A stretch of DNA of 64,000 bases from Vicinamibacterales bacterium (GTDB taxonomy: Bacteria > Acidobacteriota > Vicinamibacteria > Vicinamibacterales > CAVVIG01): positions 62-64,061 of the forward strand of contig DASSGK010000574.1 of the NCBI GenBank assembly GCA_035693505.1, in the 5' to 3' direction. Shown piece by piece: positions 2 through 60,672 of the stretch. The position numbers and the translations under genes were made by a program. Under the pieces are notes generated by a model. It was given only the letters and a program-made list of their open reading frames with translations. It was not told the DNA's origin and did no database searches. Numbering within the stretch: position 1 is the first letter of the stretch; every line of letters starts with the position of its first letter.

Positions 2-2368
2 GACGCGTCCAGGATTCAAACGGGATTCGACGCGCAGTGGCGAATTATCGAGCCGGACAATTTTGCGGCGGTGATCGGCCACGCCAGGGTGGGGCGCTAT
101 CCCTTCGGCGTCGCGCTCTCGCGTGACGACAACACGCTGTTCGTCACGCACGTTGGCGTGTTCGAATACACGCATCTGCGGCCGGCGAATCCGACCGGCG
201 ACGCCAACCTTGACTATCCGCTGTGCTATCCGGGCGCGGGCTATCCCGACGAGACGGCGCACGATCGCGTCATTGAAATCAACAAGGTCGATCCGCGCAA
301 TCTTCCAGACGGCCTGCGAGATGCCGGCGGCATCCGGTGCGGATACGTGCCGAACGATCGGCTCTACACGGTGCCGGGCCTCGGCAGCCCCAATGCGCCG
401 CAGTCATCGTCGGTGTACGTGCTGGATGTCAGCAACCCGCGCCTGCCGCAGCGGCGGGAGATCGTCAAGACAGGTCCCCTGGTCGGTCAGCGTGAAGACG
501 GCCTCGACGCGTACAGCGGGAGTCATCCGAACGCCGTCGCGGCCGGACCTGATGCGATCTACGTCGCGAACGGCAACAACGACAGCATTTCCGTGCTCGA
601 CCCGCGCACCTACCAGGAGCGCGATCGCATCGGCCTGTCGCTGCTCCGGGGGCAGGATCGCGCGTTGAGAGGCGTGCAGCCGGTGGGGCTCGCGCTGAGC
701 CCGGACGCCGAGTATCTGTATGTCGCGGAGGCGGGCATCAACGCCATCGGCGTGATCAAGCTCGATGACAGGCGCGGCGAGATCGTCGGTCACATTCCCG
801 TCGGCTGGTGGCCGAGCAGCGTGCGGGTCAGCGCCGACGGCCGATCGTTGTATGTGGCCAATGCCCGCGGCCGCGGCGCCGGGCCCAACCCCGTCGGCGA
901 AAGCCAGTCGCCGAAATTCAGCGTCCTCGGGACCGTGAACATGATTCCGACGCCGACGCAGCGGCAGCTGGATGCGTATACCACCCGCGTCTACGCCAAC
1001 AACGGCTTTGCCGCAGCCCGGCGCGAGGGCGACGACGATCGCGACGCTGACTTCGCGCGCCGCAAAGAAACCGGGAATCCGATCCCGAGCGAGGCGGGAC
1101 GGCCGAGCGCCCAGATCAAGCACGTCGTGTTCATCAACAAGGAAAACGCGACGCACGATCTGCTGCTCGGCGACATCACGCAGACGCGCCGGGGTGTGCC
1201 AGTCAACGGTCAGCCCTCGTTCTCGCTGGGGATCGAGGCGAGCCCGAACCATCACGAGCTCGCCTTGCGGTTTGCTTTCAGCGACAACTTCTTTCTCGAG
1301 CCGTCCGTCTCCTCAGACGGCCATCGCTGGTTGACGGGGCAGTACACCACCGAGTCGGAAGAGACCCACTGGCCGGCTTCTTACGGCGGGCGGCGCAACG
1401 ACTCCGGCGACGACCCCGAGGTGATCAAGAACTATCCGGGACGGATCGGGTTCACCGATGCGAACGCATCGCCCGAGCCGAACGACTACAACGAGCACGG
1501 CGGCATCTACCTTCATCTGAACCGTCACAACAGGAGCTTCGTCAACTTCGGCAACGGCTTCGAGTTCGCCGTGATTGACGAGCCAGGCGGCGCCGATCCG
1601 ACCGGCGCGCGCGAGCACGTCAACGTGCCGATGGAGAAGGTCGTCCGCGACAACAGCGACCATCTGTTTCCCACCTTCAACACGCACATTCCCGACGCAC
1701 CGCTGCCTGAAGATCCGTCGCGGTTCAACCGCTTCGATCGCTTCAAGCAGGTCTTCGAGTCCCGGTTCGTCGACCGTCGCCGCGGCGTCTGCAAGCTGCC
1801 GCAATACGTGGATCTGTACTACCCGAACGATCACGGCGGTGGCGCCCGCGACATCAACCCGGCTGGACCGGACTGGTCGTTCAAGCGATTCGTGCAGGAC
1901 AACGACGCCGCGCTCGGCTTGACCGTGGATCTGCTGTCGAACAGCCCGTGCTGGAAGGACACCGTGATCTTCGTGGTCGAGGACGACACCCAGAACGGCG
2001 CCGATCACGTGGATGGGCACCGCTCGATCTTCCTGGCCGTCAGTCCGTGGGTGAAGAAGCAGTACGTCAGCAAGACGCACACGAGCCTCGCCAGCATCTT
2101 CAAGACCGTGAATCTGATTCTCGGATTGCCGCCGCTGAATCAGTACGATGCGGCGGCGACGGATCTGCGAGACATGTTTACGAGCAGCCCGGACTTCAGC
2201 ACTTTCAGCGTCCAGCCGGTTCAGTTTGCGCAGCGGGTCAATCCGCTCTGGCTGGCGTTGACGCGCAACATCGACTTCAGCCGGCCCGACACGGATGAAC
2301 GAAAGCTTCAAGCGGCCATCATGAAGTCCGAGGGATTGCCGCGTCATCCGGAAGCCGCGGCGAAGTAG
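2..2368 (+). CDS. Beta-propeller (YncE/YVTN-like) + phosphoesterase-family (phospholipase C / acid phosphatase type) protein; 5' end runs off the window
   Basis: The reading frame is open from base 2, with no stop before the listed start at 71. Repeated blade-like strings are present: 'LFVTHVG', 'IYVANGNNDSISVLD', 'LYVAEAGINAIGVI', 'LYVANARGRG'. The C-terminal half has 'VVFINKENATHD' and 'VIFVVEDDTQNGADHVDGHRS', typical of the phosphoesterase family. Confidence 0.8.
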   Translation, partial: DASRIQTGFDAQWRIIEPDNFAAVIGHARVGRYPFGVALSRDDNTLFVTHVGVFEYTHLRPANPTGDANLDYPLCYPGAGYPDETAHDRVIEINKVDPRNLPDGLRDAGGIRCGYVPNDRLYTVPGLGSPNAPQSSSVYVLDVSNPRLPQRREIVKTGPLVGQREDGLDAYSGSHPNAVAAGPDAIYVANGNNDSISVLDPRTYQERDRIGLSLLRGQDRALRGVQPVGLALSPDAEYLYVAEAGINAIGVIKLDDRRGEIVGHIPVGWWPSSVRVSADGRSLYVANARGRGAGPNPVGESQSPKFSVLGTVNMIPTPTQRQLDAYTTRVYANNGFAAARREGDDDRDADFARRKETGNPIPSEAGRPSAQIKHVVFINKENATHDLLLGDITQTRRGVPVNGQPSFSLGIEASPNHHELALRFAFSDNFFLEPSVSSDGHRWLTGQYTTESEETHWPASYGGRRNDSGDDPEVIKNYPGRIGFTDANASPEPNDYNEHGGIYLHLNRHNRSFVNFGNGFEFAVIDEPGGADPTGAREHVNVPMEKVVRDNSDHLFPTFNTHIPDAPLPEDPSRFNRFDRFKQVFESRFVDRRRGVCKLPQYVDLYYPNDHGGGARDINPAGPDWSFKRFVQDNDAALGLTVDLLSNSPCWKDTVIFVVEDDTQNGADHVDGHRSIFLAVSPWVKKQYVSKTHTSLASIFKTVNLILGLPPLNQYDAAATDLRDMFTSSPDFSTFSVQPVQFAQRVNPLWLALTRNIDFSRPDTDERKLQAAIMKSEGLPRHPEAAAK

Positions 2369-2494
2369 GACCGCGCCTGGAACCTCAGCCAAGTTTCTCT
2401 GAGGTCGGCCGCACTGTCGTGTTCCCCTACCCGAGCGCCCGCCGTATGCTTGAAGGTGTTGAGCGCCGAGGGCGTCTTTCAGGGAGGCGACGTG

Positions 2495-3544
2495 ATGCGG
2501 ACACTGATGGTCTCGTTCGGTCTCGCGGCGCCGTTCGCGCTGACAGTCTTCGCTCAGCCGGTCGCGCGCCAGTCGCTGGACGTGTTCGCGCAGGTCGGGC
2601 TGACGCCGGGCCAGATTGCGTCCATTGACGAAGGCCGTCCCGTCGCGAAGGTCCTCTCGTGGGGAGAGTCCTCCGAGATCTATGTGTTTGGTGCCGTGCA
2701 CGTGAACGGCGCGCCTGCCGCGTACATGCAAAGGTCGCGCGATATCAAACGGCTCGCCGGCACTCCTGGGTACCTCGGGATCGGCGAGATTCCAGCGGCC
2801 GCGACCGCGGCCGATCTCGCTGGCGTCACGCTGGACGCCGACGATGTGAAGGCCCTGAAGAAATGCCGCGAAGGGTCGTGCGACGTCCAGCTGCCGACGA
2901 CGGCGATTCGAGCGTTTCAGAATGCGGTGGACTGGTCCCAGCCGGATCCGTCCACCCAGGTCAACGCCCTCGCTCGCGACATGCTGCTCGGCCTGGTCCG
3001 TGAGTATCGACGGGGCGGCAACACTGCACTCGGCGTGTACCGGGACAAAGAGCATCCGGCGCGCGTCGCCGCGCAGTTCGAGACGATGGTCGGCCGCGCC
3101 GCCGCGATCCCTGACGTCATACCGGAACTGCGACGGTACCTCCTTCAGTACCCCAATCAGGATTTGCCGGGCGCCGACAGCTACTTCTACTGGGAGAAGG
3201 TGGACTTCGGCATGAAGCCGACCATTCGCGTGAATCACGCCGTCGTCTACCACACGCGTGCAGGTGAACGGGACATCAGCGCCGTCGCGATCAAGCAGCT
3301 GTACGCCAGCCACTATTTCCACACGGCCCTCGACGTCTCGGCCTGCATCTCCGACACCACGAAATCAGAGTCGCGCGGGTTCTACCTGCTCACACTCAAA
3401 GGATCGGAGCAGGAAGGACTGACCGGCTTCAAAGGCTCCGTGGTGCGAAGAGTTGTGGTCGACAAGACCCGCTCGTCGCTCGAAACCGCGCTCGCGTCGA
3501 TCAAGCAGGCGATCGAGCAGACCCCGGCGTCCGCCCAGCGCTGA
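2495..3544 (+). CDS. Hypothetical exported protein
   Basis: Start moved to ATG 2495, preceded by AGGGAGG with a 7-nt spacer. 'MRTLMVSFGLAAPFALTVFAQP' looks like a signal peptide. No family recognised. Confidence 0.6.
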   Translation: MRTLMVSFGLAAPFALTVFAQPVARQSLDVFAQVGLTPGQIASIDEGRPVAKVLSWGESSEIYVFGAVHVNGAPAAYMQRSRDIKRLAGTPGYLGIGEIPAAATAADLAGVTLDADDVKALKKCREGSCDVQLPTTAIRAFQNAVDWSQPDPSTQVNALARDMLLGLVREYRRGGNTALGVYRDKEHPARVAAQFETMVGRAAAIPDVIPELRRYLLQYPNQDLPGADSYFYWEKVDFGMKPTIRVNHAVVYHTRAGERDISAVAIKQLYASHYFHTALDVSACISDTTKSESRGFYLLTLKGSEQEGLTGFKGSVVRRVVVDKTRSSLETALASIKQAIEQTPASAQR

Positions 3545-3724
3545 CCGCCGGCAGCCGCCGGTTTCATCAGTGCAGACAAGCCCCTCCATCAACAAAGGCT
3601 GAGTTCCAGGTCGGCCTCAACCGCAGGAAACGGCGCGCAACGGGCCGTCACTAGAGTCGAGAGGTTCGCATTGACGACGCGAGGTTGTGAACGAACCTGT
3701 TCGCGTTAACCAATGGAGGCGGCG

Positions 3725-4819
3725 ATGCCCTTGCACTCGAGGCTCTTCCGCGGCGATCCCAGGCTCGAAGCCTGCCTGATCCAGGATTCGGCGCACATTA
3801 CTCAGGGCGCGGCCGGTGAACACGTCGCCAAGATCCAGTTCGCCCTCGCGACGATCGACAATTTCGGGATTGCTCCACGCGACCTGTCGACCGGGACGTA
3901 CGGTGCCTCGACGGCAGACGCGGTCCTTGCGTACAAGACCAGGCGCCAGATCATCAACCGAAGCTACCAGACGAAGGCCGACAACATTGTCGGCAAGATG
4001 ACCATCGCCTCGCTCGATAAGGAGATGTTCGTCCACGAGCATCAGTCGACCATCGGCGGGACGTGCGTGATGAACAGGGGAGGCGGCACGATCGAGCCGG
4101 CCGGTCTCGGCACAGGCGAAAGCCGCGCCATTGTCGGCTTTGCGATCCCGGGGCAACTGCAGGTCGGACAGCCTGTTCTGACTCCCAGCGCGATGGCGCT
4201 GACATCCGTGCCGCTCGCTCTTTCCTGGGTCAGGCTCGGCGCCATCTCGGAGATCGAGACGCTGCAGGCTCTGAAGTTCATCGCCGACCTGGAAAAGAAT
4301 CCCAAGCTCGCCTTCCCAGGTGTCTTCGACACCATCAACACGCACTTCCATCTCGACCGCGATCCAACCCGCCTGCGCAGAAACCTCCGGCGGCTGCACC
4401 AGGTGTTTGGTCTCATTCGAACCGTGCTCGACAAGGCCGCGACATTCTTCAAGAGCGGGCCCAATCTGCCCAAGTCGAAGTTCGCCGACGCGCCGATGGG
4501 CGGCTTTCAGTTCGGCCCGCCGTCCAATCGCATCACCTTCCGTCCGGGCTATCTCACCTGCGGACCCAACTGCCGGGCGGCGATGATCGTCCACGAATGC
4601 GCGCACTTCGTCGGCGGCCTCAGCGTCATCAACCATTTCGCCACTGAATTTCCGATACCGCAGGGAGCGCCGCAGGACCTGGGAAAGAAGGCCGGACGGA
4701 ACTACCAGCAGCTCCTCACGGGTGAGGCCCTGCGCAATGCGTCGAGCTACGCCGCGTACGCGATTCACGCAGCGACCGGAACGGACTCCCGCTTCGGCGC
4801 CAACAACATCTCCGTCTGA
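3725..4819 (+). CDS. PG-binding-like N-terminal domain + HExxH (aspzincin/M35-like) putative metallopeptidase, no signal peptide
   Basis: ATG 3725 is preceded by GGAGG with a 5-nt spacer. The N-terminus 'GAAGEHVAKIQFALATIDNFGIAP...GTYGASTADAVLAYKTRRQI...IVGKMTIASLDKEM' fits the PG_binding_1 pattern. The C-terminus has 'MIVHECAHFVGG' (HExxH) and later 'ALRNASSYAAYAIHA', resembling the NADSY-type helix of M35/aspzincins. Confidence 0.7.
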   Translation: MPLHSRLFRGDPRLEACLIQDSAHITQGAAGEHVAKIQFALATIDNFGIAPRDLSTGTYGASTADAVLAYKTRRQIINRSYQTKADNIVGKMTIASLDKEMFVHEHQSTIGGTCVMNRGGGTIEPAGLGTGESRAIVGFAIPGQLQVGQPVLTPSAMALTSVPLALSWVRLGAISEIETLQALKFIADLEKNPKLAFPGVFDTINTHFHLDRDPTRLRRNLRRLHQVFGLIRTVLDKAATFFKSGPNLPKSKFADAPMGGFQFGPPSNRITFRPGYLTCGPNCRAAMIVHECAHFVGGLSVINHFATEFPIPQGAPQDLGKKAGRNYQQLLTGEALRNASSYAAYAIHAATGTDSRFGANNISV

Positions 4820-13392: not shown

Positions 13393-13524
13393 TCACGCGA
13401 TTCGCTGCGTGGGCAGGCCTGCCTCCTGCCATGCCTGAAAACCCCCGTGGAGGGCCCGCACACGTGTGAAGCCGCGGTCCAGCAGTACGCGCGCCAAACT
13501 GGCGCTCGAGGCCTCGCTCGGTCA
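13393..13524 (-). other. In-frame continuation of the rhodanese domain after TGA (possible Sec recoding, or remnant after a nonsense mutation)
   Basis: Reading through the TGA gives 'PSEASSASLARVLLDRGFTRVRALHGGFQAWQEAGLPTQRIA', then TGA at 13393..13395. This is the expected rhodanese C-terminus ('L.GG..AW...G.P'). An mRNA hairpin GCGCCA-GUU-UGGCGC begins about 17 nt after the UGA. Confidence 0.6.
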
Positions 13525-14322
13525 CGTGCAGTAGAGAATGATCTCCTTGTTGATGGGGATGGTGTTGATGTGTCTCTCGAATTCACCGGGCGGGATGCGC
13601 CTCGCCCCCGGGACCATTTGCGCAGAGCCGGCGAATGCCTGCTCGCTTCGCAAATCGATCACCAGGACCTCAGGCGGCTCCATGGCGAGAAGTCGTTGCA
13701 GCTCGTCGATGCCGACGCGGGCGACGGCATAGTGGCGCACGAGCCAACGCCTCTCGTACAGCTTCCACGCGACGAAGACCAGCACGGCGACGACGCCCAG
13801 CATTTCGAGAGCTCGCTGCGTGCGCATCACGTGCGGAAGCACACGCCTCCCGTACACGACTCCCGAGACGACGGCTGCCGCCGACCACGCCATCGACGCG
13901 GCGCCGTCGATGGCCGCGAATTGCAGGGGAGACATGCCGAGAATCCCGGCGAGCGGCGCCACCATCAGGCTGAAACCAGGAATGAATTTGGCAGCGGCGA
14001 CCGTCATGGCTGGACGGCGGCGGAACCGGCGTTCCGCTCGTCCCACGCACGCGTCGGGGTTGAGCGACAGCCGGCAGAGCAGTCCCAGCACCCGCCGGCC
14101 CTGGACCCGTCCGAAGGCAAACCAGATCAGATCCCCCATCCAGAAGCCGCACGCGCTCGCAAACACGAGCGGCATCGCGGAAAGCCGGTACTCGGCGGCG
14201 ATGCTCCCCGCGAGCAACAGCAATGGGAACGCCGGCAGCGGCGCGCCGAGGCTCTCGAGGAACGAAGCGGCGCAAACAACGGCGAGTCCGTGAGCGAGCA
14301 GTAGAGTCAGCACTCTCCCCAA
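13522..14322 (-). CDS. DedA-family membrane domain fused to a rhodanese domain; the ORF ends at an in-frame TGA inside the rhodanese active-site loop
   Basis: DedA-like region 'FLESLGAPLPAFPLLLLAG...FGRVQGRRVL...AAKFIPGFS'. Rhodanese beginning 'VLVIDLRSEQAF...IPPGEFERHINTIPINKEIILYCT' followed by TGA at 13522..13524. Confidence 0.85.
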   Translation of the reverse strand: MGRVLTLLLAHGLAVVCAASFLESLGAPLPAFPLLLLAGSIAAEYRLSAMPLVFASACGFWMGDLIWFAFGRVQGRRVLGLLCRLSLNPDACVGRAERRFRRRPAMTVAAAKFIPGFSLMVAPLAGILGMSPLQFAAIDGAASMAWSAAAVVSGVVYGRRVLPHVMRTQRALEMLGVVAVLVFVAWKLYERRWLVRHYAVARVGIDELQRLLAMEPPEVLVIDLRSEQAFAGSAQMVPGARRIPPGEFERHINTIPINKEIILYCT

Positions 14323-17764: not shown

Positions 17765-19012
17765 ATGGGCGCGAAACGATCTGCTCGTCGAGAATTCCTG
17801 AGAACCGGCGCCGCGTTGGCGGGCGGGTTCACCCTGGGCGGCGCAGCGCCCGCGCTCGGGCAGGCGCCGGCCCAGCCGCCGATGATCAAAGGCGAGAGGG
17901 AAGGCGAGATTGCCTATGGCGCTCGCTCGAAGTTCGTCACCTCGGCCCGCATCCCGCACGGCGGCAGGCCCTCGCCCGATACCTTCGGCCTGACGTTTCA
18001 CGTCGCGAGCCCGCTCCAGGACTCGGTCGGGGTCATCACGCCGTCCTCGCTGCACTACTTCGCGACGACGCGTGGCGCGTACCTTCCGGATATCGATCCC
18101 AGACAACACACGCTGATGATCCACGGGCTGGTGGATCGTCCGCTGACGTTCACCATGGACGACTTGAAGCGCTTCCCGTCCGTGACGCGCCTGCACTTCA
18201 TCGAGTGCGCCGGGAACCGTTCGTCGCGTCGCGCGAAGACGGTGCAGGAAACGCACGGCATGACGAGCAACGCGGAGTGGACCGGCGTGCTCCTGTCGAC
18301 GCTGTTGAAAGAATGCGGTCTGAAAAACAGCGCGAAATGGTTCGTCGCCGAGGGCTCGGAAGAAGTCAAAGGCGCGTCGAGCATGCCGATCGCCAAGGCG
18401 ATGGACGACTGCATCGTGGCGTACGGCATGAACGGCGAGGCGGTGCGCCCGCAGAACGGATTCCCGCTGCGGCTGATGGTCCCGGGCTTCGAGGGGATCC
18501 TTCACACCAAGTGGCTGCAGCGCATCAAGCTCGTCGATCGCTACTACATGAACTACAACGACTTCGGACATCTCGATCAGGACGACAGAGTCGCGGCGCT
18601 CGCCTATCAGATCGGACCCAAGTCGGTCATCACGTTTCCGTCCGGCGACCAGCGGCTGCCCGGCAAGGGCTTCTATGAGATCAGCGGCCTGGCCTGGTCC
18701 GGCGGCGGCGCCATCAAGCAAGTGGAGGTGTCGGTCGACGGCGGCAAGAAATGGAACAAGGCCGAATTCCGCGGCACTCCACAGCGGATGGCGCATTGCC
18801 GTTTCGCCTACCCGTGGAACTGGGACGGCAACGAGACCGAGATCCTGTCGCGGTGCGTCGACGAGATCGGACAGGCGCAGCCGACGCGCGAGCAGATCGC
18901 CAAGTACTGGAACAAACCCTACGATCAGACGTTCAGCGTGCCGGGGCTGGACAACAGCATCCAACCCTGGAAAATCGCCAGTGACGGGAGCGTGACCAAT
19001 GGGTTCGCGTAG
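17765..19012 (+). CDS. sorA: Sulfite-oxidase-family molybdopterin oxidoreductase (SorA-like), Tat-exported
   Basis: Tat-like 'RREFLRTGAALAGG'. 'FIECAGN' contains the Mo-ligand Cys region. The C-terminal dimerisation domain is 'ISGLAWSGGGAIKQVEVSVDGGKKW'. Confidence 0.85.
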   Translation: MGAKRSARREFLRTGAALAGGFTLGGAAPALGQAPAQPPMIKGEREGEIAYGARSKFVTSARIPHGGRPSPDTFGLTFHVASPLQDSVGVITPSSLHYFATTRGAYLPDIDPRQHTLMIHGLVDRPLTFTMDDLKRFPSVTRLHFIECAGNRSSRRAKTVQETHGMTSNAEWTGVLLSTLLKECGLKNSAKWFVAEGSEEVKGASSMPIAKAMDDCIVAYGMNGEAVRPQNGFPLRLMVPGFEGILHTKWLQRIKLVDRYYMNYNDFGHLDQDDRVAALAYQIGPKSVITFPSGDQRLPGKGFYEISGLAWSGGGAIKQVEVSVDGGKKWNKAEFRGTPQRMAHCRFAYPWNWDGNETEILSRCVDEIGQAQPTREQIAKYWNKPYDQTFSVPGLDNSIQPWKIASDGSVTNGFA

Positions 19013-19565
19013 AGTGCTCCCGATCGCGTTCGCGTCGCTGATGTGCGTCCCGGCGCTGGCGCAAGGGCCCACGTACGGCATCGGACGCCCGCCAACCGCC
19101 GAGGAGATCCGCGCGCGCGACATCTCCATCGGTCCGACCGGCGAGGAGCTGCCGCCGGGAAAGGGCAGCGCCAGGGAAGGCGCGCTTGTTTATCGCGCGA
19201 AGGGATGCGCCGGATGCCACGGCGCCAACGGCATCGGCGGCTCTGCGCCGATTCTGAAGAGCAGAGATCCCTCGAATCCCGACGTCTGGGCGCGGGGGCG
19301 AATCCTGCCGCTGCGCGCGCCGTTCGCGACGACGGTCTGGGACTACATCAATCGCGGCATGCCGCTCAATCGCGAGGGAACACTGACGCCGGACGAGGTC
19401 TACGCGCTGACGGCGTATCTTTTGTCCATCAACGGCGTCGTCCCCGAAGACCAGGTTCTCGATCAGCAGAATCTCGCGCAGGTGAAGATGCCGCTGGGCG
19501 ACCACTACGCGTCACTCCCTGATTGGAAGCCGCGGACGCAACGGTTGAAAGGCTATCCCTACTGA
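18999..19565 (+). CDS. sorB: Mono-haem cytochrome c (SorB-like partner)
   Basis: Signal peptide and 'CAGCHG' haem motif. The start overlaps the sorA-like stop by 14 nt. Confidence 0.75.
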   Translation: MGSRRVLPIAFASLMCVPALAQGPTYGIGRPPTAEEIRARDISIGPTGEELPPGKGSAREGALVYRAKGCAGCHGANGIGGSAPILKSRDPSNPDVWARGRILPLRAPFATTVWDYINRGMPLNREGTLTPDEVYALTAYLLSINGVVPEDQVLDQQNLAQVKMPLGDHYASLPDWKPRTQRLKGYPY

Positions 19566-22154: not shown

Positions 22155-22280
22155 CTTCGTGCGCGCCCGCCCCAGGCCCCACAGACTCTTCGACACCCGC
22201 GCATAAACCTTGACCCGTCCCGTCTCCGGGTATATAGCCACAGTGACGTTTGTCGCTTGCGGCGAAGAAGAGAGGCGCTC

Positions 22281-23114
22281 ATGAGCCGGACGGGACAAAG
22301 GCTCGCGGTTTTCCTGGCGTTCGCGCTTGGCTGCGTCTGCGCGCACGCGGCGGCCGCACAGGATCGATCGGCCCCGCGTCCCGAGCCGCGGGCGGCTACC
22401 AATCCATTGGAAGGTAACGCGCTGGCCATCAGCAACGGCGCCGCCATGTTCCGCAACCGCTGCGCGGGCTGCCACGGACCCGATGCGCACGGCTACCTCG
22501 GTCCCGATCTCACGTCGTACTGGTCCGCCGGCGGCACCGACGCTCGCATGTTCGACATCGTCCGGAAAGGCGTCCCCGGCACAGAGATGATTGGCGCGGA
22601 TCCGCTGCGCGTGCTCGACAAGGACATCTGGCAGACGCTCGCCTACATCCGCACGCTGAGTGCAGTCCCTGCCGCGGCGCCGACCGGGGACGCCGTGAGT
22701 GGCGAACGCGTCTTCAGGACGAACTGCGCGAGCTGTCACCGGGTCAACGGACGCGGCGGGCAACTCGGTCCCGATCTCTCGCGCATCGGATCGGCGCGGC
22801 CCCGCGCCGGACTCGCGAGCAAGATTCGCGGATCGAGCGATGTCATCCGGCCGGGATACGAGCCGGTGACGCTGGTGACCCGCGACGGCGAGCGCATTCG
22901 CGGCGTCAGGAAGAACGAAGACGAGTTCTCGATTCAGATCATGGACGCGCGCGAGCGCCTCCAGGGATACGTCAAGGCCAACCTGACCGCGATCACGTTC
23001 GACAAGCAATCGCTGATGCCGGTGTACGGTCCCGATCGGTTGAACGATCGCGACTTCGACGATCTCCTGCGGTACCTGACGTCGCTCCGCGGGGCGACCG
23101 AGACGGCACGATGA
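22281..23114 (+). CDS. Di-haem c-type cytochrome (cassette 1)
   Basis: GAGAGG lies 5 nt before ATG 22281. Signal peptide. Two CxxCH motifs ('CAGCHG', 'CASCHR'). Paralogous to 59758..60624 along its full length. Confidence 0.85.
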   Translation: MSRTGQRLAVFLAFALGCVCAHAAAAQDRSAPRPEPRAATNPLEGNALAISNGAAMFRNRCAGCHGPDAHGYLGPDLTSYWSAGGTDARMFDIVRKGVPGTEMIGADPLRVLDKDIWQTLAYIRTLSAVPAAAPTGDAVSGERVFRTNCASCHRVNGRGGQLGPDLSRIGSARPRAGLASKIRGSSDVIRPGYEPVTLVTRDGERIRGVRKNEDEFSIQIMDARERLQGYVKANLTAITFDKQSLMPVYGPDRLNDRDFDDLLRYLTSLRGATETAR

Positions 23115-24799
23115 GGAGGAGCATGCGCAAGCAGACGAGAGGGCTGGATGGGCGGGACGGGCAGGATGGGCAGGACACGAATCGGATCGTACCTGCGGTG
23201 CTGGTGATTCTCGCGTGCGCGCTCTCGTGGACGCTCGTCTCCGCCCAGCAGCCGACCGCGTCGGTCACCTCGCAGGATCTTCGCGAGGGCCTGAAGAATC
23301 CGACGCGCTGGCTCACCTACGGCGGCGACTACGGCAACCTTCGCCACAGCCCGCTCACCCAGATTACGCCGGCGAACGTGAATCGGCTGGTGCCGCAGTG
23401 GCAGTTCCAGACCGACACGCTCGGCAAGTTCGAGGCGGCGCCGCTGGTCTTCGACGGCGTCGTTTACGTGACTGGACCGCTCGACACCGGATGGGCGCTC
23501 GACGCCCGCACCGGCCGGCAGATCTGGCGCTACCGGCGTGAACTCCCCAGCGGCCTCATCGCCTGCTGCGGCCTCGTGAACCGCGGCTTTGGCGTCCTGG
23601 GCGATCTCCTCTTCAAGACGACGCTCGATGCGCACATCGTGGCGATCAGCCGCAAGACGGGCGCGATCGAGTGGGACACAGCGATGGAGGATTTCCGTCG
23701 CGGCTACAGCGGGACGACCGCGCCGCTCGTCGTGAAAGATAAAGTGATCGTCGGCATTGCCGGCGCCGAGTACGGCATTCGCGGTTTCATCGATGCGTAC
23801 GATGCGCAAACGGGAAAACAAGTCTGGCGGTTCTACACGACCGCGGGCCCCCAGGATCCCGGCCACGGCACATGGCGCGGGACCGATGCGAAGGCATGGG
23901 AGCACGGCGGCGGATCAATCTGGGTGCCCGGCGCCTACGATCCCGAGCTCAATCTCACCTACTGGGGCACGGGGAACGCGGGGCCTGACTACAACGGCCT
24001 CGAGCGCGAGGGCGACAATTTGTACACCGCATCGGTGGTTGCGCTCGACGCCGACACGGGCAAGCTGCGCTGGCACTATCAATTCACACCGCACGACATC
24101 TGGGACTACGACTCGACGCAAATGCCGGTGCTGGCTGACGTCACGCTCGGCGGAGAGCTGCGAAAAGTGGTCCTCTTCGCGAATCGCAACGGGTTCTTCT
24201 ACGTGCTCGATCGCGCGACAGGCAATCTGATTCGCGGCAAGCCGTTCATCCAGACGACGTGGGCGAAGGAAATCCGGGCGGATGGCCGGCCGATGCTCCT
24301 GCCCAACTCCGTGCCGAGCGAGCAGGGCACGAGAGTCTGTCCCGATCAGTCCGGGGGGACCAACTGGATGCCGCCGTCGTTCGATCCGTCGCTCGGCCTC
24401 TTCTTCGTGACCGCGCGCGAGTCGTGCGGCATCTTCTTCACGTGGAAAGACGATTACACGCCCGGCGAGGCCTTTCGCGGCGGGGCGGTCCAGCGGCTCG
24501 GCGACACGCAGTCGAGCATGCTGCGCGCGATCGACGTCACGACCGGCGAGCGGCGCTGGGAGTTTCCATACACCACGCAGTCATGGGCCGGCGTGCTGTC
24601 CACGGCGTCCGGCCTGGTCTTCGCCGGCGGATCGGGAAACGTGATGGCGTTCGACGCGAAGAGCGGAAAAAACCTCTGGCATTTCCAGACCGGCTCGTCG
24701 CTCTACGCGGGCGCGATGACCTACATGGTCGACGGCCGCCAGTACGTCCTCTTGCCTGCCGGTACGACGTTGACCGCGTTCGCGCTCGCAGAATTTTAA
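23111..24799 (+). CDS. PQQ-dependent alcohol dehydrogenase, methanol/ethanol family (cassette 1)
   Basis: ATGA overlap with the cytochrome gene. 'LTYGGDYGNLRHSPL', vicinal 'ACCG', 'GAEYGIRG', 'YWGTGNAGP' and 'HDIWDYD' (Asp codons at 24104 and 24110). Confidence 0.92.
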   Translation: MRRSMRKQTRGLDGRDGQDGQDTNRIVPAVLVILACALSWTLVSAQQPTASVTSQDLREGLKNPTRWLTYGGDYGNLRHSPLTQITPANVNRLVPQWQFQTDTLGKFEAAPLVFDGVVYVTGPLDTGWALDARTGRQIWRYRRELPSGLIACCGLVNRGFGVLGDLLFKTTLDAHIVAISRKTGAIEWDTAMEDFRRGYSGTTAPLVVKDKVIVGIAGAEYGIRGFIDAYDAQTGKQVWRFYTTAGPQDPGHGTWRGTDAKAWEHGGGSIWVPGAYDPELNLTYWGTGNAGPDYNGLEREGDNLYTASVVALDADTGKLRWHYQFTPHDIWDYDSTQMPVLADVTLGGELRKVVLFANRNGFFYVLDRATGNLIRGKPFIQTTWAKEIRADGRPMLLPNSVPSEQGTRVCPDQSGGTNWMPPSFDPSLGLFFVTARESCGIFFTWKDDYTPGEAFRGGAVQRLGDTQSSMLRAIDVTTGERRWEFPYTTQSWAGVLSTASGLVFAGGSGNVMAFDAKSGKNLWHFQTGSSLYAGAMTYMVDGRQYVLLPAGTTLTAFALAEF

Positions 24800-25871: not shown

Positions 25872-28394
25872 ATGCGGTTGGGGCGCCAGACGCGGCGGAT
25901 GTTGACGCGGCGCGCGGGTCGCATCTGGATCGTTGCGCTCGCTCTCATCGGTTCGATCGCAGTGGCCCTGTCGGGGACGCGGATCGCCGCCAAGGGTCGA
26001 CGGGCGCCAACTCCGCTTCCTGCTCCTGTGCCCGCCGTCCGGGCGGTCCTCGACACCTACTGCATCACCTGCCACAACCAGCGACTGCGTACCGGCGGGC
26101 TTGCGCTCGATCGCCTGGACCTGACGAACCCGGTTGCCAACGCTGAGGAGTGGGAAAAGGTGATCGCGAAACTTCGGGCCGGCTCGATGCCACCGGCCGG
26201 GAGACCGCGGCCTGACGCGGCCACCTATCGAGCTGTGGCGAGCGCCCTGGAGAACGACATCGACCGGGCGTCGGCGGCCGGTCCGAATCCCGGCAGGATC
26301 AACGCGGTCCACCGGCTCAATCGCACGGAATACCAGCACGCGATCCGCGACCTGTTCGCCCTCGACATCGATGTGAGGTCGCTCCTGCCCGGCGACGAGA
26401 CGGCGGACGGCAGCTTCGACAATTTTGCGACATCGCTCTCGATTTCGACGGCCCATCTGGAACGGTACATGTCGGTGGCCCGTCAAATCACGCGCCTCGC
26501 GACCGGCCTTCCTCCCGCACGGCCGACGCTGGAGACGTTCGAGATACCGTTGCACGTCGTGCAGGACGATCGGCAGAGCGAAGATCTGCCGTTCGGATCT
26601 CGCGGCGGCATCGCGATCCACCACGACTTTCCGGTCGACGGCGAGTACCTCATCAAAGTTCGTCTCCAGCGGCAGTACCAGGACTATCTCAAGGGCATGG
26701 GATGGCCGCAGCGGCTCGACGTCCGCCTCGACGCGCGGCTGCTCAAACGGTTCACCGTTGGAGGCGGCGCGCAAGGCAGGCCCGCCGCGACCAGCTATGC
26801 CGGCGACGGCGAGCCGAACTTCGCCGGCGATCCCGAGTGGGAAAAGTACATGCAGCTCGACGGAGACGCTGGGCTGGAGCTCCGCGTCCAGGTGCCGGCA
26901 GGGCCGCACCTGATCGGCGTGTCGTTCGTGAGGGAACTGTGGGAGCCGGAAGGCCTCCCGCAGCCGCTGCAACGCGGCAGGGTCATCACGGACGACAACG
27001 TGTACATGAATCCTGCGAGCGTCGGCTCGGTCCTGATCGGTGGGCCGTACACGAAAGCCGGACCGGCGAAGGACACGCCAAGCCGTCGCGCGATTTTCGT
27101 CTGTCAGCCATCGCGTGCTGCTGAAGAGCGGGCGTGTGCGACGAAGATTCTTTCACGGGTTGCCCGGCTCGCGTATCGGCGGCCGGTGACGAGCGGCGAT
27201 GTGCAAACGCTCGTCGAGTTCTTCGACGACGGCCGACGCGACGGTACGTTTGATGACGGGATTCAGTTCGCGCTCGAGCGCATGCTCGTCGACCCGGACT
27301 TCCTTCTGCGCATTCACAGGGAGTCCCCCCTTCAAGCGTCGCAGACTGCGTATCGTCTCGACGGCATCGAACTCGCCTCGCGCCTGTCGTTCTTTCTCTG
27401 GAGCAGCATCCCCGACGATCGCCTGCTTGCGCTGGGCGAACGCGGACAGCTGACGAACCCGTCGATCCTTGTGGCTGAAGTGCGGCGAATGCTGGCGGAC
27501 CCGCGCGCCACCGATACGCTCGTCAACGATTTCGCCGCGCAATGGCTGAATCTGCGCCGCGTCGAGGAAGTCGTGGTCGATCAGGATCGGTATCCCAACT
27601 ACGACCTCAGCCTGTTGCAGGCCTTCCAGCGGGAAACGGAACTGTTTGTCGGCAGCACGATCCGCGAGGATCGCAGCGTCGCGGAGCTCCTCAACGCCGA
27701 CTACACGTTCGTCAACGAACGCCTGGCGCGGCACTACGGCATTCCCCGCGTCTACGGCAGCCGCTTCCGTCGCGTGACGCTTCCGAACCTCGACCAGCGC
27801 GGCGGGTTGCTCGGCCAGGGCGCGCTGCTCGCGACCACGTCGTACCCGGATCGGACGTCCCCCGTCCTGCGCGGCAAATGGCTGCTGAACAACATTCTTG
27901 GTTTGCCGGTCCCGCCGCCTCCACCCGGCGTGGACACCAACCTCGCGGAGATCAAGCCCGGCGCGCCGCCGCCTTCCATACGCGAGCGCCTGGCCGAACA
28001 TCGGCAGAATCCCTCGTGCAACAGTTGTCATTCCGTCATCGATCCGCTCGGCTTCGCGCTCGAGAATTTCGATGTCATCGGGGGATGGCGGACCGTCGAC
28101 GAATCGCGCAGGCCCGTCGACGCGAGCGGCACGACGGCGAGCGGTGCACAGGTCGAGGGGCTGAGGGGACTGCGAGCGATGCTGCTCGACGAGCCCCAGC
28201 AGTTTCCCCGCACGGTCACCGAAAAGCTCCTGGCCTACGCTCTGGGCCGGAGGCTCGAGTACTACGATCGACCGACGGTACGAAAGATCGTCAGGGACGC
28301 GGCGGCCCACGACTACCGCTGGTCGGCGCTCATTCAGGGGGTTGTGGAAAGCCCCGCATTTTTGATGCGGGCATCACAGGCCGCATCGCACTGA
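25872..28394 (+). CDS. DUF1587/DUF1592/DUF1595/DUF1588/DUF1585-type protein (Planctomycete-cytochrome-like)
   Basis: 'CITCHNQRLRTGGLALD', 'KLRAGSMPP' and C-terminal 'SCNSCHSVIDPLGFALENFD' are hallmark strings of this family. Confidence 0.88.
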   Translation: MRLGRQTRRMLTRRAGRIWIVALALIGSIAVALSGTRIAAKGRRAPTPLPAPVPAVRAVLDTYCITCHNQRLRTGGLALDRLDLTNPVANAEEWEKVIAKLRAGSMPPAGRPRPDAATYRAVASALENDIDRASAAGPNPGRINAVHRLNRTEYQHAIRDLFALDIDVRSLLPGDETADGSFDNFATSLSISTAHLERYMSVARQITRLATGLPPARPTLETFEIPLHVVQDDRQSEDLPFGSRGGIAIHHDFPVDGEYLIKVRLQRQYQDYLKGMGWPQRLDVRLDARLLKRFTVGGGAQGRPAATSYAGDGEPNFAGDPEWEKYMQLDGDAGLELRVQVPAGPHLIGVSFVRELWEPEGLPQPLQRGRVITDDNVYMNPASVGSVLIGGPYTKAGPAKDTPSRRAIFVCQPSRAAEERACATKILSRVARLAYRRPVTSGDVQTLVEFFDDGRRDGTFDDGIQFALERMLVDPDFLLRIHRESPLQASQTAYRLDGIELASRLSFFLWSSIPDDRLLALGERGQLTNPSILVAEVRRMLADPRATDTLVNDFAAQWLNLRRVEEVVVDQDRYPNYDLSLLQAFQRETELFVGSTIREDRSVAELLNADYTFVNERLARHYGIPRVYGSRFRRVTLPNLDQRGGLLGQGALLATTSYPDRTSPVLRGKWLLNNILGLPVPPPPPGVDTNLAEIKPGAPPPSIRERLAEHRQNPSCNSCHSVIDPLGFALENFDVIGGWRTVDESRRPVDASGTTASGAQVEGLRGLRAMLLDEPQQFPRTVTEKLLAYALGRRLEYYDRPTVRKIVRDAAAHDYRWSALIQGVVESPAFLMRASQAASH

Positions 28395-28404
28395 ATTCCG
28401 TCTG

Positions 28405-28422
28405 GTCCGGCTGAAGCCGGAC
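28405..28422. repeat. GGCTGAAGCC-core hairpin (GTCCGGC-TGAA-GCCGGAC)
   Basis: A 7-bp stem with a TGAA loop, 11 nt after the DUF1592 stop. It has the same core and loop as one arm of the element at 29816..29865. Confidence 0.6.
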
Positions 28423-28446
28423 ACTACATGTGAGGAGACGACAGGT

Positions 28447-29784
28447 ATGGCGTTCCTTTCAAAATCGTTGCCGCGGCGAACCGTCCTGCGGGGGCTGGGT
28501 GCGACCATGGCGCTGCCATTCCTCGACGCAATGCTCCCCGCGTTTTCGATGCGCGGGCTGGCCGCCGCCAAGCCGGCGCACCGGTTCCAGACGTTCTACG
28601 TGCCAAACGGCATGGCGATGGAGTACTGGCTGCCGAAAGGCGAGGGGACCGCGTTCGAGCTCTCACCGATTCTGGAGCCGCTGGCGCCGTTCCGCGAGCA
28701 GATGCTCGTCCTGTCGGGCCTCAAGGCGAACTGGAACTACATCCACGCCGGCGCCTCCGGATCGTTTCTGACGGGGACTGCGCACGGCGGACGGAACGAA
28801 ATCGAAATCATCGCCGACGTGTCGGTGGATCAATTGCTGGCACGGCACTTCGCCGGCGAGACGCAGGTCGCATCGCTCGAACTCTCGATGGACGCCCCGG
28901 CCAACGCCGGCGCATGCACGGGCATCCTGAGCTGCGTCTACACGCACACGCTGTCGTGGCGCAGCCCGACGCAGCCGTTGCCCATGGAGTGGAATCCGCG
29001 AGCGGTGTTCGAGCGGCTGTTCGGCGACAGCGGCAGCACGAACCGGGCCGCGCGCGAGGCGAGGCTGCGACAGCACAAGAGCATTCTCGACTCGGTGACG
29101 GAGAAGCTGGCGAGCCTCAAGAAAGAGCTCGGACCGCAGGATCAGACCAAGGTCGATCAGTATGCCGACGCGGTTCGTGACGTCGAGCGGCGCATCGAGA
29201 AGGCCGAGCAGCAGAGCGGCCTCGAACTGCCGGCGCTGGAGCAGCCTCAGGGCGCACCTCCTGTCTTCGAAGATCACCTGGCTTTGATGCTCGACTTGCA
29301 GCTTCTCGCGTTTCAGTCCGATCTCACGCGCGTCATCTCGTTCATGCTCGGCAAGGAACAGAGCGCGCGACCGTATCCCCAGATTGGCGTGCCCGAAGCT
29401 CACCATCCGCTGTCGCACCACAACGACGTGCCCGAGCTGATCGCGCACATGTCGAAGATCAACCGTTATCACACGCAGCTGTTCGCGAAGTACCTGGAGA
29501 GGCTGCGCGCGACGCCCGACGGTGACGGCTCGCTCCTCGATCACACCACGATCCTGTACGGCTCGGGTATCTCGAACAGCACGCGGCACTCGGGCGACAA
29601 TCTGCCGCTCCTGGTGATGGGCGGCGGGGCAGGGACGCTCAAGGGCGGCCGGCATCTCACGTACTCCGGCAAGCCGACGATGGCCAACCTGCTGGTGACG
29701 CTGATGGACAAGATGGACGTGCCGGTCGAGCGCGTCGGCGGCAGCACCGGCAAGCTTCCGCTCGATACGCTCTCCGGAATGTAG
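28447..29784 (+). CDS. DUF1552-domain protein (Tat-signal-like N-terminus)
   Basis: GAGGAG lies 9 nt upstream. 'LPRRTVLRGLGATMALPFLDAM' and the overall pattern are typical of DUF1552 partners of DUF1592 proteins. Confidence 0.88.
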   Translation: MAFLSKSLPRRTVLRGLGATMALPFLDAMLPAFSMRGLAAAKPAHRFQTFYVPNGMAMEYWLPKGEGTAFELSPILEPLAPFREQMLVLSGLKANWNYIHAGASGSFLTGTAHGGRNEIEIIADVSVDQLLARHFAGETQVASLELSMDAPANAGACTGILSCVYTHTLSWRSPTQPLPMEWNPRAVFERLFGDSGSTNRAAREARLRQHKSILDSVTEKLASLKKELGPQDQTKVDQYADAVRDVERRIEKAEQQSGLELPALEQPQGAPPVFEDHLALMLDLQLLAFQSDLTRVISFMLGKEQSARPYPQIGVPEAHHPLSHHNDVPELIAHMSKINRYHTQLFAKYLERLRATPDGDGSLLDHTTILYGSGISNSTRHSGDNLPLLVMGGGAGTLKGGRHLTYSGKPTMANLLVTLMDKMDVPVERVGGSTGKLPLDTLSGM

Positions 29785-60624: not shown

Positions 60625-60672
60625 GGCACACCTGCCTGAAAGTGTTGAGTCCGAGCAGCGACGACTCATTGT

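What the first reader, a model, noticed from the sequence alone, without database searches (positions are those of the whole stretch)
13393..13560. Single in-frame TGA inside the rhodanese active-site loop of a DedA-rhodanese fusion: selenocysteine candidate or fresh nonsense mutation
**Seen in sequence**
- The minus-strand ORF ends '...KEIILYCT' at TGA 13522..13524.
- Reading on in the same frame gives 'PSEASSASLARVLLDRGFTRVRALHGGFQAWQEAGLPTQRIA' before a second TGA at 13393..13395.
- That stretch is the missing C-terminal half of a rhodanese domain (the 'L.GG..AW...G.P' ending). The domain is therefore complete except for one codon.
- The mRNA downstream of the UGA can form GCGCCA-GUU-UGGCGC. 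This is a 6-bp stem with a G/U-containing apical loop, starting about 17 nt after the UGA. Two more pairs are possible below a 1x1 mismatch.

**Established knowledge**
- Bacterial Sec insertion needs a hairpin shortly 3' of the UGA.
- Sec positions normally align with Cys in homologues.
- Rhodanese-related sulfurtransferases are among reported bacterial selenoprotein families.

**Inference and caveats**
- From memory, DedA-rhodanese homologues read 'YC(S/T)CPNEA' here, so the TGA would sit on a Cys column. I cannot verify this.
- In a high-G+C genome an open downstream frame is weak evidence on its own. The recognisable in-frame motif is the stronger argument.
Basis: partly seen in the sequence, partly recalled or inferred. 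Interest (0 to 1): 0.75.

Follow-up and report, generated by a model that had tools for sequence, protein, structure and literature searches.

The report
Selenocysteine codon in DedA-rhodanese gene
The in-frame TGA is not a mutation: it is a deeply conserved selenocysteine codon, with its own conserved RNA hairpin, in the active site of a membrane-anchored rhodanese enzyme family that public databases annotate as truncated proteins.

Summary
The minus-strand DedA(VTT)-rhodanese ORF stops at TGA 13522-13524 and continues in frame for 42 codons that complete the rhodanese domain.

It is not a fresh nonsense mutation or a sequencing error. In 86 independent loci (30-98% protein identity, different gene neighbourhoods, 50-65% GC) the codon is TGA in 62 and TGC/TGT in 24. 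It is never TAA, TAG or another residue. The downstream frame is always open and evolves like coding sequence.

A 5-bp G/C hairpin with a G-containing loop (+17 to +31 after UGA; window 13491-13505) has invariant wobble positions in 59/59 distinct TGA forms. It is absent from 0/24 Cys forms (p = 2e-21). That is the signature of a bacterial SECIS.

The rhodanese domain's best match is NCBIfam NF041203, "rhodanese_LYCAU (seleno)protein", which has the same C-x-U motif. It scores below that model's cutoff (94 vs 115 bits), and that family is stand-alone.

I conclude, at about 90% confidence, that this is a genuine selenoprotein. It is a DedA-fused, unannotated sister clade of a known rhodanese selenoprotein family, common in soil Acidobacteriota.

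Sec machinery (selA/B/C/D) could not be tested: none lies in the 64-kb window. The biochemical function is unknown.

The parts
13393..14322 (-). Full selenoprotein gene, DedA(VTT)-rhodanese fusion. It is 309 codons counted from TTG 14322, or 306 from GTG 14313, which is where the homologues are called. The true terminator is TGA 13393-13395.
13861..14235 (-). VTT/DedA membrane domain (residues 30-154). It includes the near-invariant Cys pair C83 (14074-14076) and C92 (14047-14049) in the motif 'LCRLSLNPDACV'.
   Evidence: Pfam PF09335, 36.4 bits against a 33.9 cutoff.
13753..13809 (-). Hydrophobic linker helix (about residues 172-190, 'LEMLGVVAVLVFVAWKLY'), followed by the basic stretch 'ERRWLVRHY'. 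By the positive-inside rule (inference) this places the rhodanese domain in the cytoplasm.
   Evidence: The sequence. In the model of homologue P0199 a long helix spans residues 165-203.
13420..13704 (-). Rhodanese domain (residues 207-301), which spans the TGA.
   Evidence: Pfam PF00581, 46.5 bits, full-length profile match. PDB sequence hits. Foldseek on the homologue model: 3tp9 at rmsd 1.5 A.
13528..13530 (-). Codon for Cys265, the first residue of the C-x-U motif. It is invariant in the family.
   Evidence: C265 invariant.
13522..13524 (-). UGA = selenocysteine codon (residue 267) in the rhodanese active-site connector 'LYC-T-U-PSEAS'.
   Evidence: TGA in 62 loci and TGC/TGT in 24 loci at this column, nothing else. 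Three more divergent TGA forms. Aligns to the catalytic Cys of 6mxv and 3iwh.
13491..13505 (-). SECIS core hairpin. The 5' arm is GCGCC (13501-13505, +17..+21), the loop is AGUUU (13496-13500, with G at +23), and the 3' arm is GGCGC (13491-13495, +27..+31). In this clade A22-U26 can also pair, giving a GUU triloop.
   Evidence: Core present in 59/59 TGA forms and 0/24 Cys forms, Fisher p = 2e-21. Wobble-site entropy is 0 in TGA forms against 0.94-1.68 bits in Cys forms. RNAalifold returns this stem. Local fold z = -2.39.
13488..13508 (-). Possible two-pair extension of the stem (C14-G34, G15-C33) below the A16/G32 mismatch. Only weakly supported.
   Evidence: +15/+33 pairs in 47/59 TGA forms with both G-C and C-G, but the split follows clades. 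Covariation score 0.082 against 0.044 shuffled, reached by 2 of 500 shuffles.

Best explanation
The gene encodes one polypeptide of about 306-309 residues: an N-terminal DedA/VTT membrane domain, a linker helix, and a C-terminal (probably cytoplasmic) rhodanese domain. UGA 13522-13524 is decoded as selenocysteine.

Proposed decoding mechanism (inferred from the known bacterial pathway):
- While the ribosome is on the UGA, the mRNA 17-31 nt downstream forms a short G/C hairpin, GCGCC-NGKNY-GGCGC.
- The loop of this hairpin, with its invariant G at +23, is bound by SelB.GTP.Sec-tRNASec.
- SelB delivers Sec to the A site instead of release factor 2.

The result is a C-x-U motif (Cys265-Thr-Sec267) at the junction of the central beta-strand and the active-site helix of the rhodanese fold.

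Likely chemistry (inferred): the selenolate is the nucleophile that accepts or transfers a sulfane-sulfur or selenium atom, or cycles through a Cys265-Sec267 selenenylsulfide. This would happen at the membrane surface next to the DedA domain, which carries its own conserved Cys pair.

Shown here:
- Conservation of the UGA.
- Sec/Cys alternation at the column.
- Coding constraint downstream of the UGA.
- An RNA constraint specific to the UGA forms.
- Rhodanese fold and motif.

Inferred, not shown:
- SelB dependence.
- Actual selenium incorporation.
- Membrane topology.
- The substrate.
For: 1. All 120 best database homologues (77-98% identity) end at '...LYCT'. At least 51 of 150 representatives of 50%-identity clusters stop right after 'C-x', and 57 of 58 full-length ones have Cys there.

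2. DNA of 86 loci shows TGA in 62, TGC in 21 and TGT in 3. There is no TAA or TAG and no other residue. Three further divergent forms from contigs at 50-58% GC also have TGA.

3. Gene neighbourhoods differ between loci, so the locus is not a single inherited pseudogene region.

4. Downstream of the TGA, 0 of 58 sequences have a stop in frame 0 within 37 codons, against 26 and 15 in the other two frames. Mean entropy at codon positions 1/2/3 is 0.85/0.57/1.54, like the upstream coding part at 0.93/0.74/1.51.

5. Wobble positions +18, +21, +27 and +30 are invariant in the TGA forms and vary by 0.94-1.68 bits in the Cys forms, while flanking wobble sites are saturated in both. The core stem is present in 59/59 TGA forms and 0/24 Cys forms, p = 2e-21. 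It is also absent from 0/18 Cys forms that have identical Ser-Ala...Ala residues.

6. The best NCBIfam hit for the window and for 10 other family members is NF041203, 'rhodanese_LYCAU rhodanese-related (seleno)protein'. Reviews list a rhodanese CxU selenoprotein form (PMC9312934, PMC13188914).

7. TGA terminates 21 of the 41 other predicted genes in the window, so UGA is not reassigned genome-wide.

8. Acidobacteria are recorded Sec decoders (PMC1794560 Table 2).
Against: - No selA, selB, selD or tRNA-Sec was seen in the 64-kb window or in about 420 kb of fetched related loci. That amount of sequence is far too little to count as absence.
- The stem shows no compensatory changes in its five core pairs because they never vary. 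The structural reading therefore rests on conservation, not covariation.
- The hairpin is shorter than the classical E. coli fdhF SECIS. No curated RNA model matched it (Rfam).
- No protein-level evidence of selenium exists.
Confidence: 0.9

Rival explanations
1. UGA is read through by a mechanism that does not insert selenium. Candidates are a Cys-charged opal-suppressor tRNA (a selC*-type tRNA-Cys(UCA) delivered by a SelB-like factor) or an acidobacterial allo-tRNA suppressor. The product would then carry Cys or Ser at residue 267.
For: Mukai et al. (PMC5389517) describe tRNASec-like allo-tRNAs in Acidobacteria that may act as nonsense suppressors. They also describe selC* tRNA-Cys(UCA) that decodes UGA as Cys in some deltaproteobacteria. 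A conserved hairpin is also compatible with a SelB-paralogue-dependent route. The Sec machinery was not observed here.
Against: - selC* genes were not reported in Acidobacteria.
- If Cys were the product, TGC would do the same job. There would be no reason to keep a costly UGA plus hairpin over this depth of divergence while other lineages simply use TGC.
- The nearest curated family is annotated as a selenoprotein.
Confidence: 0.05
2. The TGA is a genuine terminator. The functional product is the 263-266-aa DedA protein with half a rhodanese domain, and the downstream frame is a decaying or separately used remnant.
For: This is how every public record annotates it. UGA is a normal stop in this genome.
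Against: - Half a rhodanese fold cut in the active-site loop is not a stable domain (inference).
- The downstream 38-42 codons are open in 58/58 sequences and show the 1/2/3 codon-position pattern of translated sequence.
- Cys-form homologues translate exactly this stretch.
- There is no start codon or ribosome-binding context for a separate ORF.
Confidence: 0.03
3. The TGA is a fresh nonsense mutation, a pseudogene or a sequencing or assembly error, specific to this genome.
For: A single TGA inside a domain, seen in one window, is what such an event would look like.
Against: The identical codon at the identical column occurs in 62 independently assembled contigs from many samples and sequencing centres, down to about 30% protein identity. 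It is accompanied by a TGA-specific frozen RNA element.
Confidence: 0.01

Closest known systems
NCBIfam NF041203 'rhodanese_LYCAU, rhodanese-related (seleno)protein'. [quoted passage not shown]
   Same: It has a rhodanese fold and the same L-Y-C-x-U motif, with Sec two residues after a conserved Cys. It is the best-scoring curated model for the window's domain (93.9 bits, profile 16-124 of 126) and for ten other members of this family (69-97 bits). Its function is equally unknown, since it was predicted by bioinformatics.
   Different: That family is a stand-alone protein of about 126 residues. The window's protein is fused to a DedA/VTT membrane domain of about 200 residues. All fusion members tested fall below the curated 115-bit cutoff, so they form a separate clade that the NCBI pipeline neither names nor recodes. 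Whether the two families share the same SECIS was not tested.
Cys-containing DedA-rhodanese fusion proteins (motifs 'YC[STAND]CP[ND]E'), annotated as DedA/VTT family proteins
   Same: They are orthologous or paralogous full-length proteins with the same architecture, the same conserved Cys pair in the membrane domain, and the same first Cys. They align without gaps around the active site.
   Different: They carry TGC or TGT instead of TGA and lack the frozen GCGCC/GGCGC hairpin. On a rough NJ tree they interleave with TGA forms, with at least 7 switches and the root inferred as Sec.
Bacterial SECIS element as defined on E. coli fdhF (from general knowledge: a minimal upper stem-loop of about 17 nt placed 11 nt after the UGA, with loop G23/U24 contacted by SelB)
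   Same: It is a hairpin immediately 3' of the UGA inside the coding sequence. The apical loop has an invariant G followed by U or G. The position is fixed relative to the UGA in all 59 forms.
   Different: The spacer is longer: the stem starts at +17 and the loop G is at +23 counted after the UGA, which is +26 in fdhF numbering. The conserved stem has only 5 pairs and no conserved bulged U. SelB binding was not tested.
TsoB, rhodanese/DsbD fusion-like selenoprotein (NF045694)
   Same: It is another membrane-protein-fused rhodanese selenoprotein. It gives a weak hit to the window's domain (24.3 bits) and is listed as rhodanese form 5 in PMC13188914.
   Different: It has a different fusion partner (DsbD-like rather than DedA), a different motif (UxxxxU, two Sec residues), and scores far below its cutoff (805 bits).
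E. coli YgaP (PDB 5hbo), a membrane-anchored single-domain rhodanese
   Same: It is a rhodanese domain tethered to the inner membrane. It is a structural match to the homologue model (Foldseek rank 49).
   Different: It has Cys rather than Sec, a C-terminal two-helix anchor rather than an N-terminal DedA domain, and the canonical active-site loop.

Membership tests
Bacterial selenoprotein gene (Sec-UGA with SECIS) | The in-frame UGA is conserved across diverged orthologues, and the stop is specifically UGA. | tested here: met
   TGA in 62 of 86 loci plus 3 further divergent ones. TAA or TAG in none.
Bacterial selenoprotein gene (Sec-UGA with SECIS) | Homologues without UGA carry Cys at the same column. 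| tested here: met
   TGC/TGT in 24 of 24 non-TGA loci. Cys in 57 of 58 full-length representatives.
Bacterial selenoprotein gene (Sec-UGA with SECIS) | The sequence downstream of the UGA is translated in the same frame. | tested here: met
   0 of 58 sequences have in-frame stops within 37 codons, against 26 and 15 in the other frames. Codon-position entropy is 0.85/0.57/1.54. The stretch completes the Pfam rhodanese profile.
Bacterial selenoprotein gene (Sec-UGA with SECIS) | A stem-loop lies shortly 3' of the UGA with a conserved G in the apical loop, and it is under selection at the RNA level. | tested here: met
   The core hairpin is present in 59/59 TGA forms and 0/24 Cys forms, with invariant wobble sites. 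Consensus fold. There is no compensatory covariation in the core because it never varies.
Bacterial selenoprotein gene (Sec-UGA with SECIS) | selA, selB, selD and tRNA-Sec (selC) are present in the same genome. | not testable with these tools
   None in the 64-kb window or in 420 kb of related loci.
Bacterial selenoprotein gene (Sec-UGA with SECIS) | Selenium is physically present at the residue. | not testable with these tools
   Needs 75Se labelling or mass spectrometry.
NCBIfam NF041203 rhodanese_LYCAU (seleno)protein | The whole-protein score is at or above the curated cutoff of 115 bits. | tested here: not met
   93.9 bits for the window. 69-97 bits for ten other fusion-family members. 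It is the best hit in every case.
NCBIfam NF041203 rhodanese_LYCAU (seleno)protein | The L-Y-C-x-U motif is present (Sec two residues after Cys). | tested here: met
   The window reads I-L-Y-C-T-U. The family-wide motif is [LFMV]-[YF]-C-[TSA]-U.
NCBIfam NF041203 rhodanese_LYCAU (seleno)protein | Stand-alone single-domain architecture of about 126 residues. | tested here: not met
   The profile is 126 positions long. The window's protein is 306-309 residues with an N-terminal VTT domain.
Rhodanese homology domain (Pfam PF00581) | The score is above the gathering threshold over the full profile, and the fold is rhodanese. | tested here: met
   46.5 bits against a 22.2 cutoff, profile 4-102 of 102, but only when the TGA is read through. 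The model of Cys homologue P0199 has pLDDT 91.8 and matches 3tp9 at 1.5 A.
Rhodanese homology domain (Pfam PF00581) | The Sec occupies the canonical catalytic Cys position of the active-site loop. | tested here: inconclusive
   Gapless alignments to 6mxv (both domains) and 3iwh put the Sec on the catalytic Cys. Alignments to 3tp9 and 6pfz put Cys265 there, with a 2-residue insertion. The model puts Cys265 right after the strand and the Sec column at the helix N-cap.
DedA / VTT domain family (Pfam PF09335) | The score is above the gathering threshold. | tested here: met
   36.4 bits against a 33.9 cutoff, residues 30-154. Weak hits to NCBIfam DedA and UptA models are all below their cutoffs.

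The most novel reading that the evidence does not exclude
The DedA-rhodanese selenoprotein is a membrane chalcogen-trafficking module. The DedA domain would bring a selenium or sulfur species to the inner face of the membrane. DedA has been genetically linked to selenite uptake in Ralstonia metallidurans (cited in PMC11422209).

The tethered rhodanese would then capture that species on its Cys-x-Sec site as a perselenide, persulfide or selenotrisulfide for hand-off to cytoplasmic acceptors such as SelD. Rhodanese is known to carry selenium in bioavailable form (PMC9369223). The conserved Cys83/Cys92 pair of the membrane domain would act as relay partners.

That would make this a selenoprotein that serves selenium acquisition itself, and it would give the enigmatic DedA family a defined redox-coupled transport role. 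Nothing here tests this. It rests on domain fusion, four conserved redox residues and the literature on the separate domains.
Probability: 0.1. Interest if true: 0.75.

Novelty: new variant of a known kind. Interest (0 to 1): 0.5.

Why it matters
Annotation. Every public record I could see for this widespread soil (Acidobacteriota, Vicinamibacterales and others) protein family is truncated at the UGA and named only 'DedA/VTT'. This hides both the rhodanese domain and the selenocysteine. The 15-nt frozen motif AGCGCC-NGKNY-GGCG at +16..+30 gives a simple rule for re-annotating these genes.

Biology. The family adds a membrane-fused architecture to the rhodanese selenoproteins. It places a Sec-based active site next to a DedA domain, a family whose biochemical roles are still being worked out. 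That makes a redox or chalcogen-transfer function of this DedA subgroup experimentally approachable.

Evolution. The interleaving of TGA and TGC forms, with at least 7 switches, is a clean natural series for studying Sec-to-Cys replacement and SECIS decay.

Tried and rejected
- **Wider fold.** Folding 73 nt downstream of the UGA gave z = +0.8, no better than shuffles. The long-range pairs in that MFE are not conserved, so I rejected them and kept only the local hairpin.
- **RNA and tRNA scans.** Rfam at gathering thresholds found nothing in the window. ARAGORN found no tRNA in the window. In related loci it found only tRNA-Cys(GCA), no tRNA-Sec.
- **Sec machinery in the window.** Pfam scans of 40 predicted window proteins found no SelA, SelB or SelD domains.
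- **Stem extension.** Extending the stem by +15/+33 and +16/+32 gets only weak support. One pair has two-sided changes, a third of its cells are unpaired, and the split follows clades. I do not count it as part of the core element.
- **Other TGA candidates.** The candidate at 19563 is just the next gene (glyoxalase-like) starting in the same frame. The one at 30806 is antisense to the ankyrin gene.
- **Metagenome scan.** A 38-sequence alignment was too diverse for the metagenome scan. A 9-sequence alignment worked.
- **Structure prediction.** I modelled a natural Cys homologue, P0199, instead. Coordinates are not exposed, so I could not decide by superposition whether Cys265 or Sec267 is at the canonical catalytic position.
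- **Genome-wide reassignment of UGA** was rejected. TGA ends 21 of the 41 other predicted genes.
- **Operon context** was rejected as a functional clue. The neighbours differ between loci.
Full report
**1. The observation**

The minus-strand ORF 13522..14322 ends '...KEIILYCT' at TGA 13522-13524. The same frame runs on for 42 codons ('PSEASSASLARVLLDRGFTRVRALHGGFQAWQEAGLPTQRIA') to TGA 13393-13395.

With the TGA read through, Pfam finds a VTT/DedA domain (residues 30-154) and a complete rhodanese domain (residues 207-301, profile positions 4-102 of 102). The domain is therefore whole except for this one codon.

The hairpin GCGCCA-GUU-UGGCGC lies at 13491-13505 and begins 17 nt after the UGA. 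Folded locally it gives -11.9 kcal/mol, z = -2.39, matched by 4 of 200 shuffles. A 73-nt fold of the wider region is no better than chance (z = +0.8), so thermodynamics alone would not have settled anything.

**2. Not a mutation or an error**

- The 120 best database homologues (77-98% identity, from Vicinamibacterales and other Acidobacteriota MAGs and soil metagenomes) are all about 263 aa, and every one inspected ends '...LYCT'.
- An exhaustive profile-free search of 1.8 billion cluster representatives shows the same pattern down to about 30% identity. At least 51 of the 150 best representatives stop right after 'C-x' (YCT, YCS, FCT and similar). Of 58 full-length ones, 57 have Cys at the next column ('CSCPNE', 'CACPNE', 'CTCPNE').
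- I fetched DNA for these relatives from genome and metagenome collections. Across 86 loci the codon is TGA in 62, TGC in 21 and TGT in 3. It is never TAA, TAG or any other codon, and the frame downstream always encodes the rest of a rhodanese domain.
- Three more very divergent forms, from contigs of only 50-58% GC, behave the same way. One of them has different residues immediately after the codon ('U-M-R-E-L').
- Gene neighbourhoods differ from locus to locus.
- In the TGA forms, 0 of 58 sequences have a stop in frame within 37 codons downstream, against 26 and 15 in the other two frames. Variation is concentrated at codon position 3 (entropy 0.85/0.57/1.54) just as in the upstream coding part (0.93/0.74/1.51). 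The stretch is therefore translated.
- TGA is an ordinary terminator for 21 of the 41 other predicted genes in the window, so the genetic code is not globally altered.

**3. The RNA element**

The region after the codon aligns without gaps, so nucleotides can be compared codon by codon.

- In 56 distinct TGA forms, positions +16 to +30 read AGC GCC nGn nUG GCG. The four wobble positions +18, +21, +27 and +30 have zero entropy.
- In 24 Cys forms the same positions vary by 0.94, 1.68, 1.60 and 1.68 bits.
- Wobble positions on either side (+3, +9, +12, +15, +33, +36 and onward) are saturated at 1-1.9 bits in both sets.
- Including the three extra forms, the core C18-C21/G27-G30 is present in 59 of 59 TGA forms and 0 of 24 Cys forms (Fisher p = 2e-21). 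It is also absent from 0 of 18 Cys forms that encode the very same Ser-Ala...Ala residues. Protein constraint therefore cannot explain it.
- The element folds as a 5-bp stem (G17-C31, C18-G30, G19-C29, C20-G28, C21-G27) with a 5-nt loop N22-G23-K24-N25-Y26, in which G23 is invariant. The commonest loops are CGUGU (27), AGUUU (11, the window's type), CGGGU (9) and AGUCU (8).
- RNAalifold recovers exactly this stem and nothing else.
- Because the core never varies there is no compensatory covariation in it. A two-pair extension (+15/+33, +16/+32) shows G-C/C-G exchange but is only weakly supported.
- A hairpin at a fixed short distance 3' of a UGA, with a conserved G in the loop, maintained only where the codon is UGA, is what a bacterial SECIS looks like. 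The comparison with E. coli fdhF is from general knowledge. Here the loop G lies 3 nt further from the UGA and no bulged U is conserved.

**4. Where the Sec sits**

- Sequence alignments to solved rhodaneses place the TGA column on the catalytic Cys in the gapless cases (6mxv domains 1 and 2, 3iwh). They place the preceding Cys265 there, with a two-residue insertion, in others (3tp9, 6pfz).
- An AlphaFold model of a natural Cys homologue with the same C-T-C-P-S-E loop (P0199; pLDDT 91.8) ends the central strand at the Tyr. It has C-T-C as the connector and starts the active-site helix at the Pro.
- Its best structural matches are single-domain rhodaneses: 3tp9 at 1.5 A over 106 columns, Alr3790, and the persulfide dioxygenase-rhodanese fusion. 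Nothing in the PDB matches the DedA half.
Whether it is the canonical nucleophile position or two residues after it remains open.
- Both residues of the C-x-U motif are conserved (C265 invariant). So is a Cys pair (C83, C92) in the membrane domain.

**5. Comparison with what is known**

- NCBIfam contains NF041203, 'rhodanese_LYCAU, rhodanese-related (seleno)protein'. It is the best hit for the window's domain (93.9 bits, profile 16-124 of 126) and for ten other members of the fusion family (69-97 bits). All are below the curated cutoff of 115 bits, and the model describes a stand-alone protein of about 126 residues.
- Two reviews list this rhodanese 'CxU' form among predicted prokaryotic selenoproteins (PMC9312934, PMC13188914).
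- Neither review mentions DedA, VTT or a membrane fusion. No paper in the searchable library holds 'selenoprotein', 'DedA' and 'rhodanese' together.
- No public protein record I retrieved contains U or reads through the codon. They are named 'VTT domain-containing protein' or 'membrane protein DedA'.
- I therefore classify the gene as a selenoprotein of the known rhodanese C-x-U kind, in a new, unannotated DedA-fused variant that forms a sister clade to the curated family.
- A rough NJ tree interleaves TGA and Cys forms, with at least 7 switches and the root inferred as Sec. TGA forms that keep the hairpin are nested among Cys forms, which suggests repeated Sec-to-Cys replacement. The tree has no support values.

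**6. What could not be shown**

- The window has no tRNA gene, no Rfam hit, and no SelA, SelB or SelD domain among 40 scanned proteins. The 420 kb of related loci hold only tRNA-Cys.
Acidobacteria as a phylum are recorded Sec decoders (PMC1794560).
- A non-selenium read-through is the only rival I keep above a few per cent. Examples are allo-tRNA suppressors described in Acidobacteria, or selC*-type Cys insertion (PMC5389517).
- The biochemical function is unknown. The mechanism proposed is inference from the domains, from the reported DedA-selenite link, and from rhodanese selenium carriage. It has a selenolate nucleophile cycling with Cys265, acting on a sulfane-sulfur or selenium species at the membrane next to the DedA domain.

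**7. Verdict**

- The Sec interpretation is supported at about 0.9.
- The nonsense-mutation and error interpretation is refuted.
- Novelty is modest: a new architectural variant of a known selenoprotein kind. There is practical value for annotation, and the finding gives a testable lead on DedA function.

Noticed in passing
window 14047-14049 and 14074-14076 (minus strand; residues C92 and C83): The DedA/VTT domain carries a near-invariant Cys pair in the motif 'LCRxSL[EN]PDxCV'. It is conserved across both Sec and Cys forms. Together with C265/U267 it gives four conserved redox-capable residues, which hints at a thiol/selenol relay between the membrane domain and the rhodanese domain.
   Followed up: partly
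L030 3527-3603, L033 3486-3562, L034 3529-3605, L036 3500-3576, L065 3509-3585: A tRNA-Cys(GCA) gene lies about 1.2 kb downstream of the homologous selenoprotein gene in five related metagenomic loci. These loci are closely related to one another, so this may be simple synteny.
   Followed up: no
window 17765-19565 (+): A sulfite-oxidase-like molybdoenzyme (Oxidored_molyb + Mo-co_dimer) is followed by a cytochrome c, a SorAB-like pair, 3.4 kb from the focal gene. It relates to sulfur chemistry, but homologues of the focal gene sit in unrelated neighbourhoods, so I infer no functional link.
   Followed up: partly
window 19563-19565 (+): The stop of the cytochrome c gene is followed by 130 open in-frame codons. 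This is just the next gene (glyoxalase/VOC-like, starting 'MSVKRIV...') lying in the same frame, not a second Sec candidate.
   Followed up: yes
window 14313-14322 (minus strand): The start codon of the focal gene is ambiguous. The longest ORF starts at TTG 14322, but homologues are called from the Val/Met equivalent to GTG 14313 (263 aa to the UGA).
   Followed up: partly
window 71-2368, 2450-3544, 3713-4819 (+) and 52621-54954 (-): These are large ORFs with coding-like GC3 and no Pfam match at E <= 1e-5.
   Followed up: no
window 22257-24799, 58154-62727: The window holds three PQQ-dependent dehydrogenase genes with associated cytochrome c genes. It also holds a DUF1592/DUF1588/DUF1585 (PSD) plus DUF1552 pair at 25872-29784. 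This content is typical of soil Acidobacteriota or Planctomycetota.
   Followed up: no
L027, L094, L075 (TGA forms) versus L047, L090, L091 (Cys forms): Some TGA forms that keep the intact hairpin nest inside an otherwise Cys-form clade on the NJ tree. L027 and L094 have a G17-U31 wobble at the base of the stem. This suggests several recent, independent Sec-to-Cys replacements, but the tree has no support values.
   Followed up: partly
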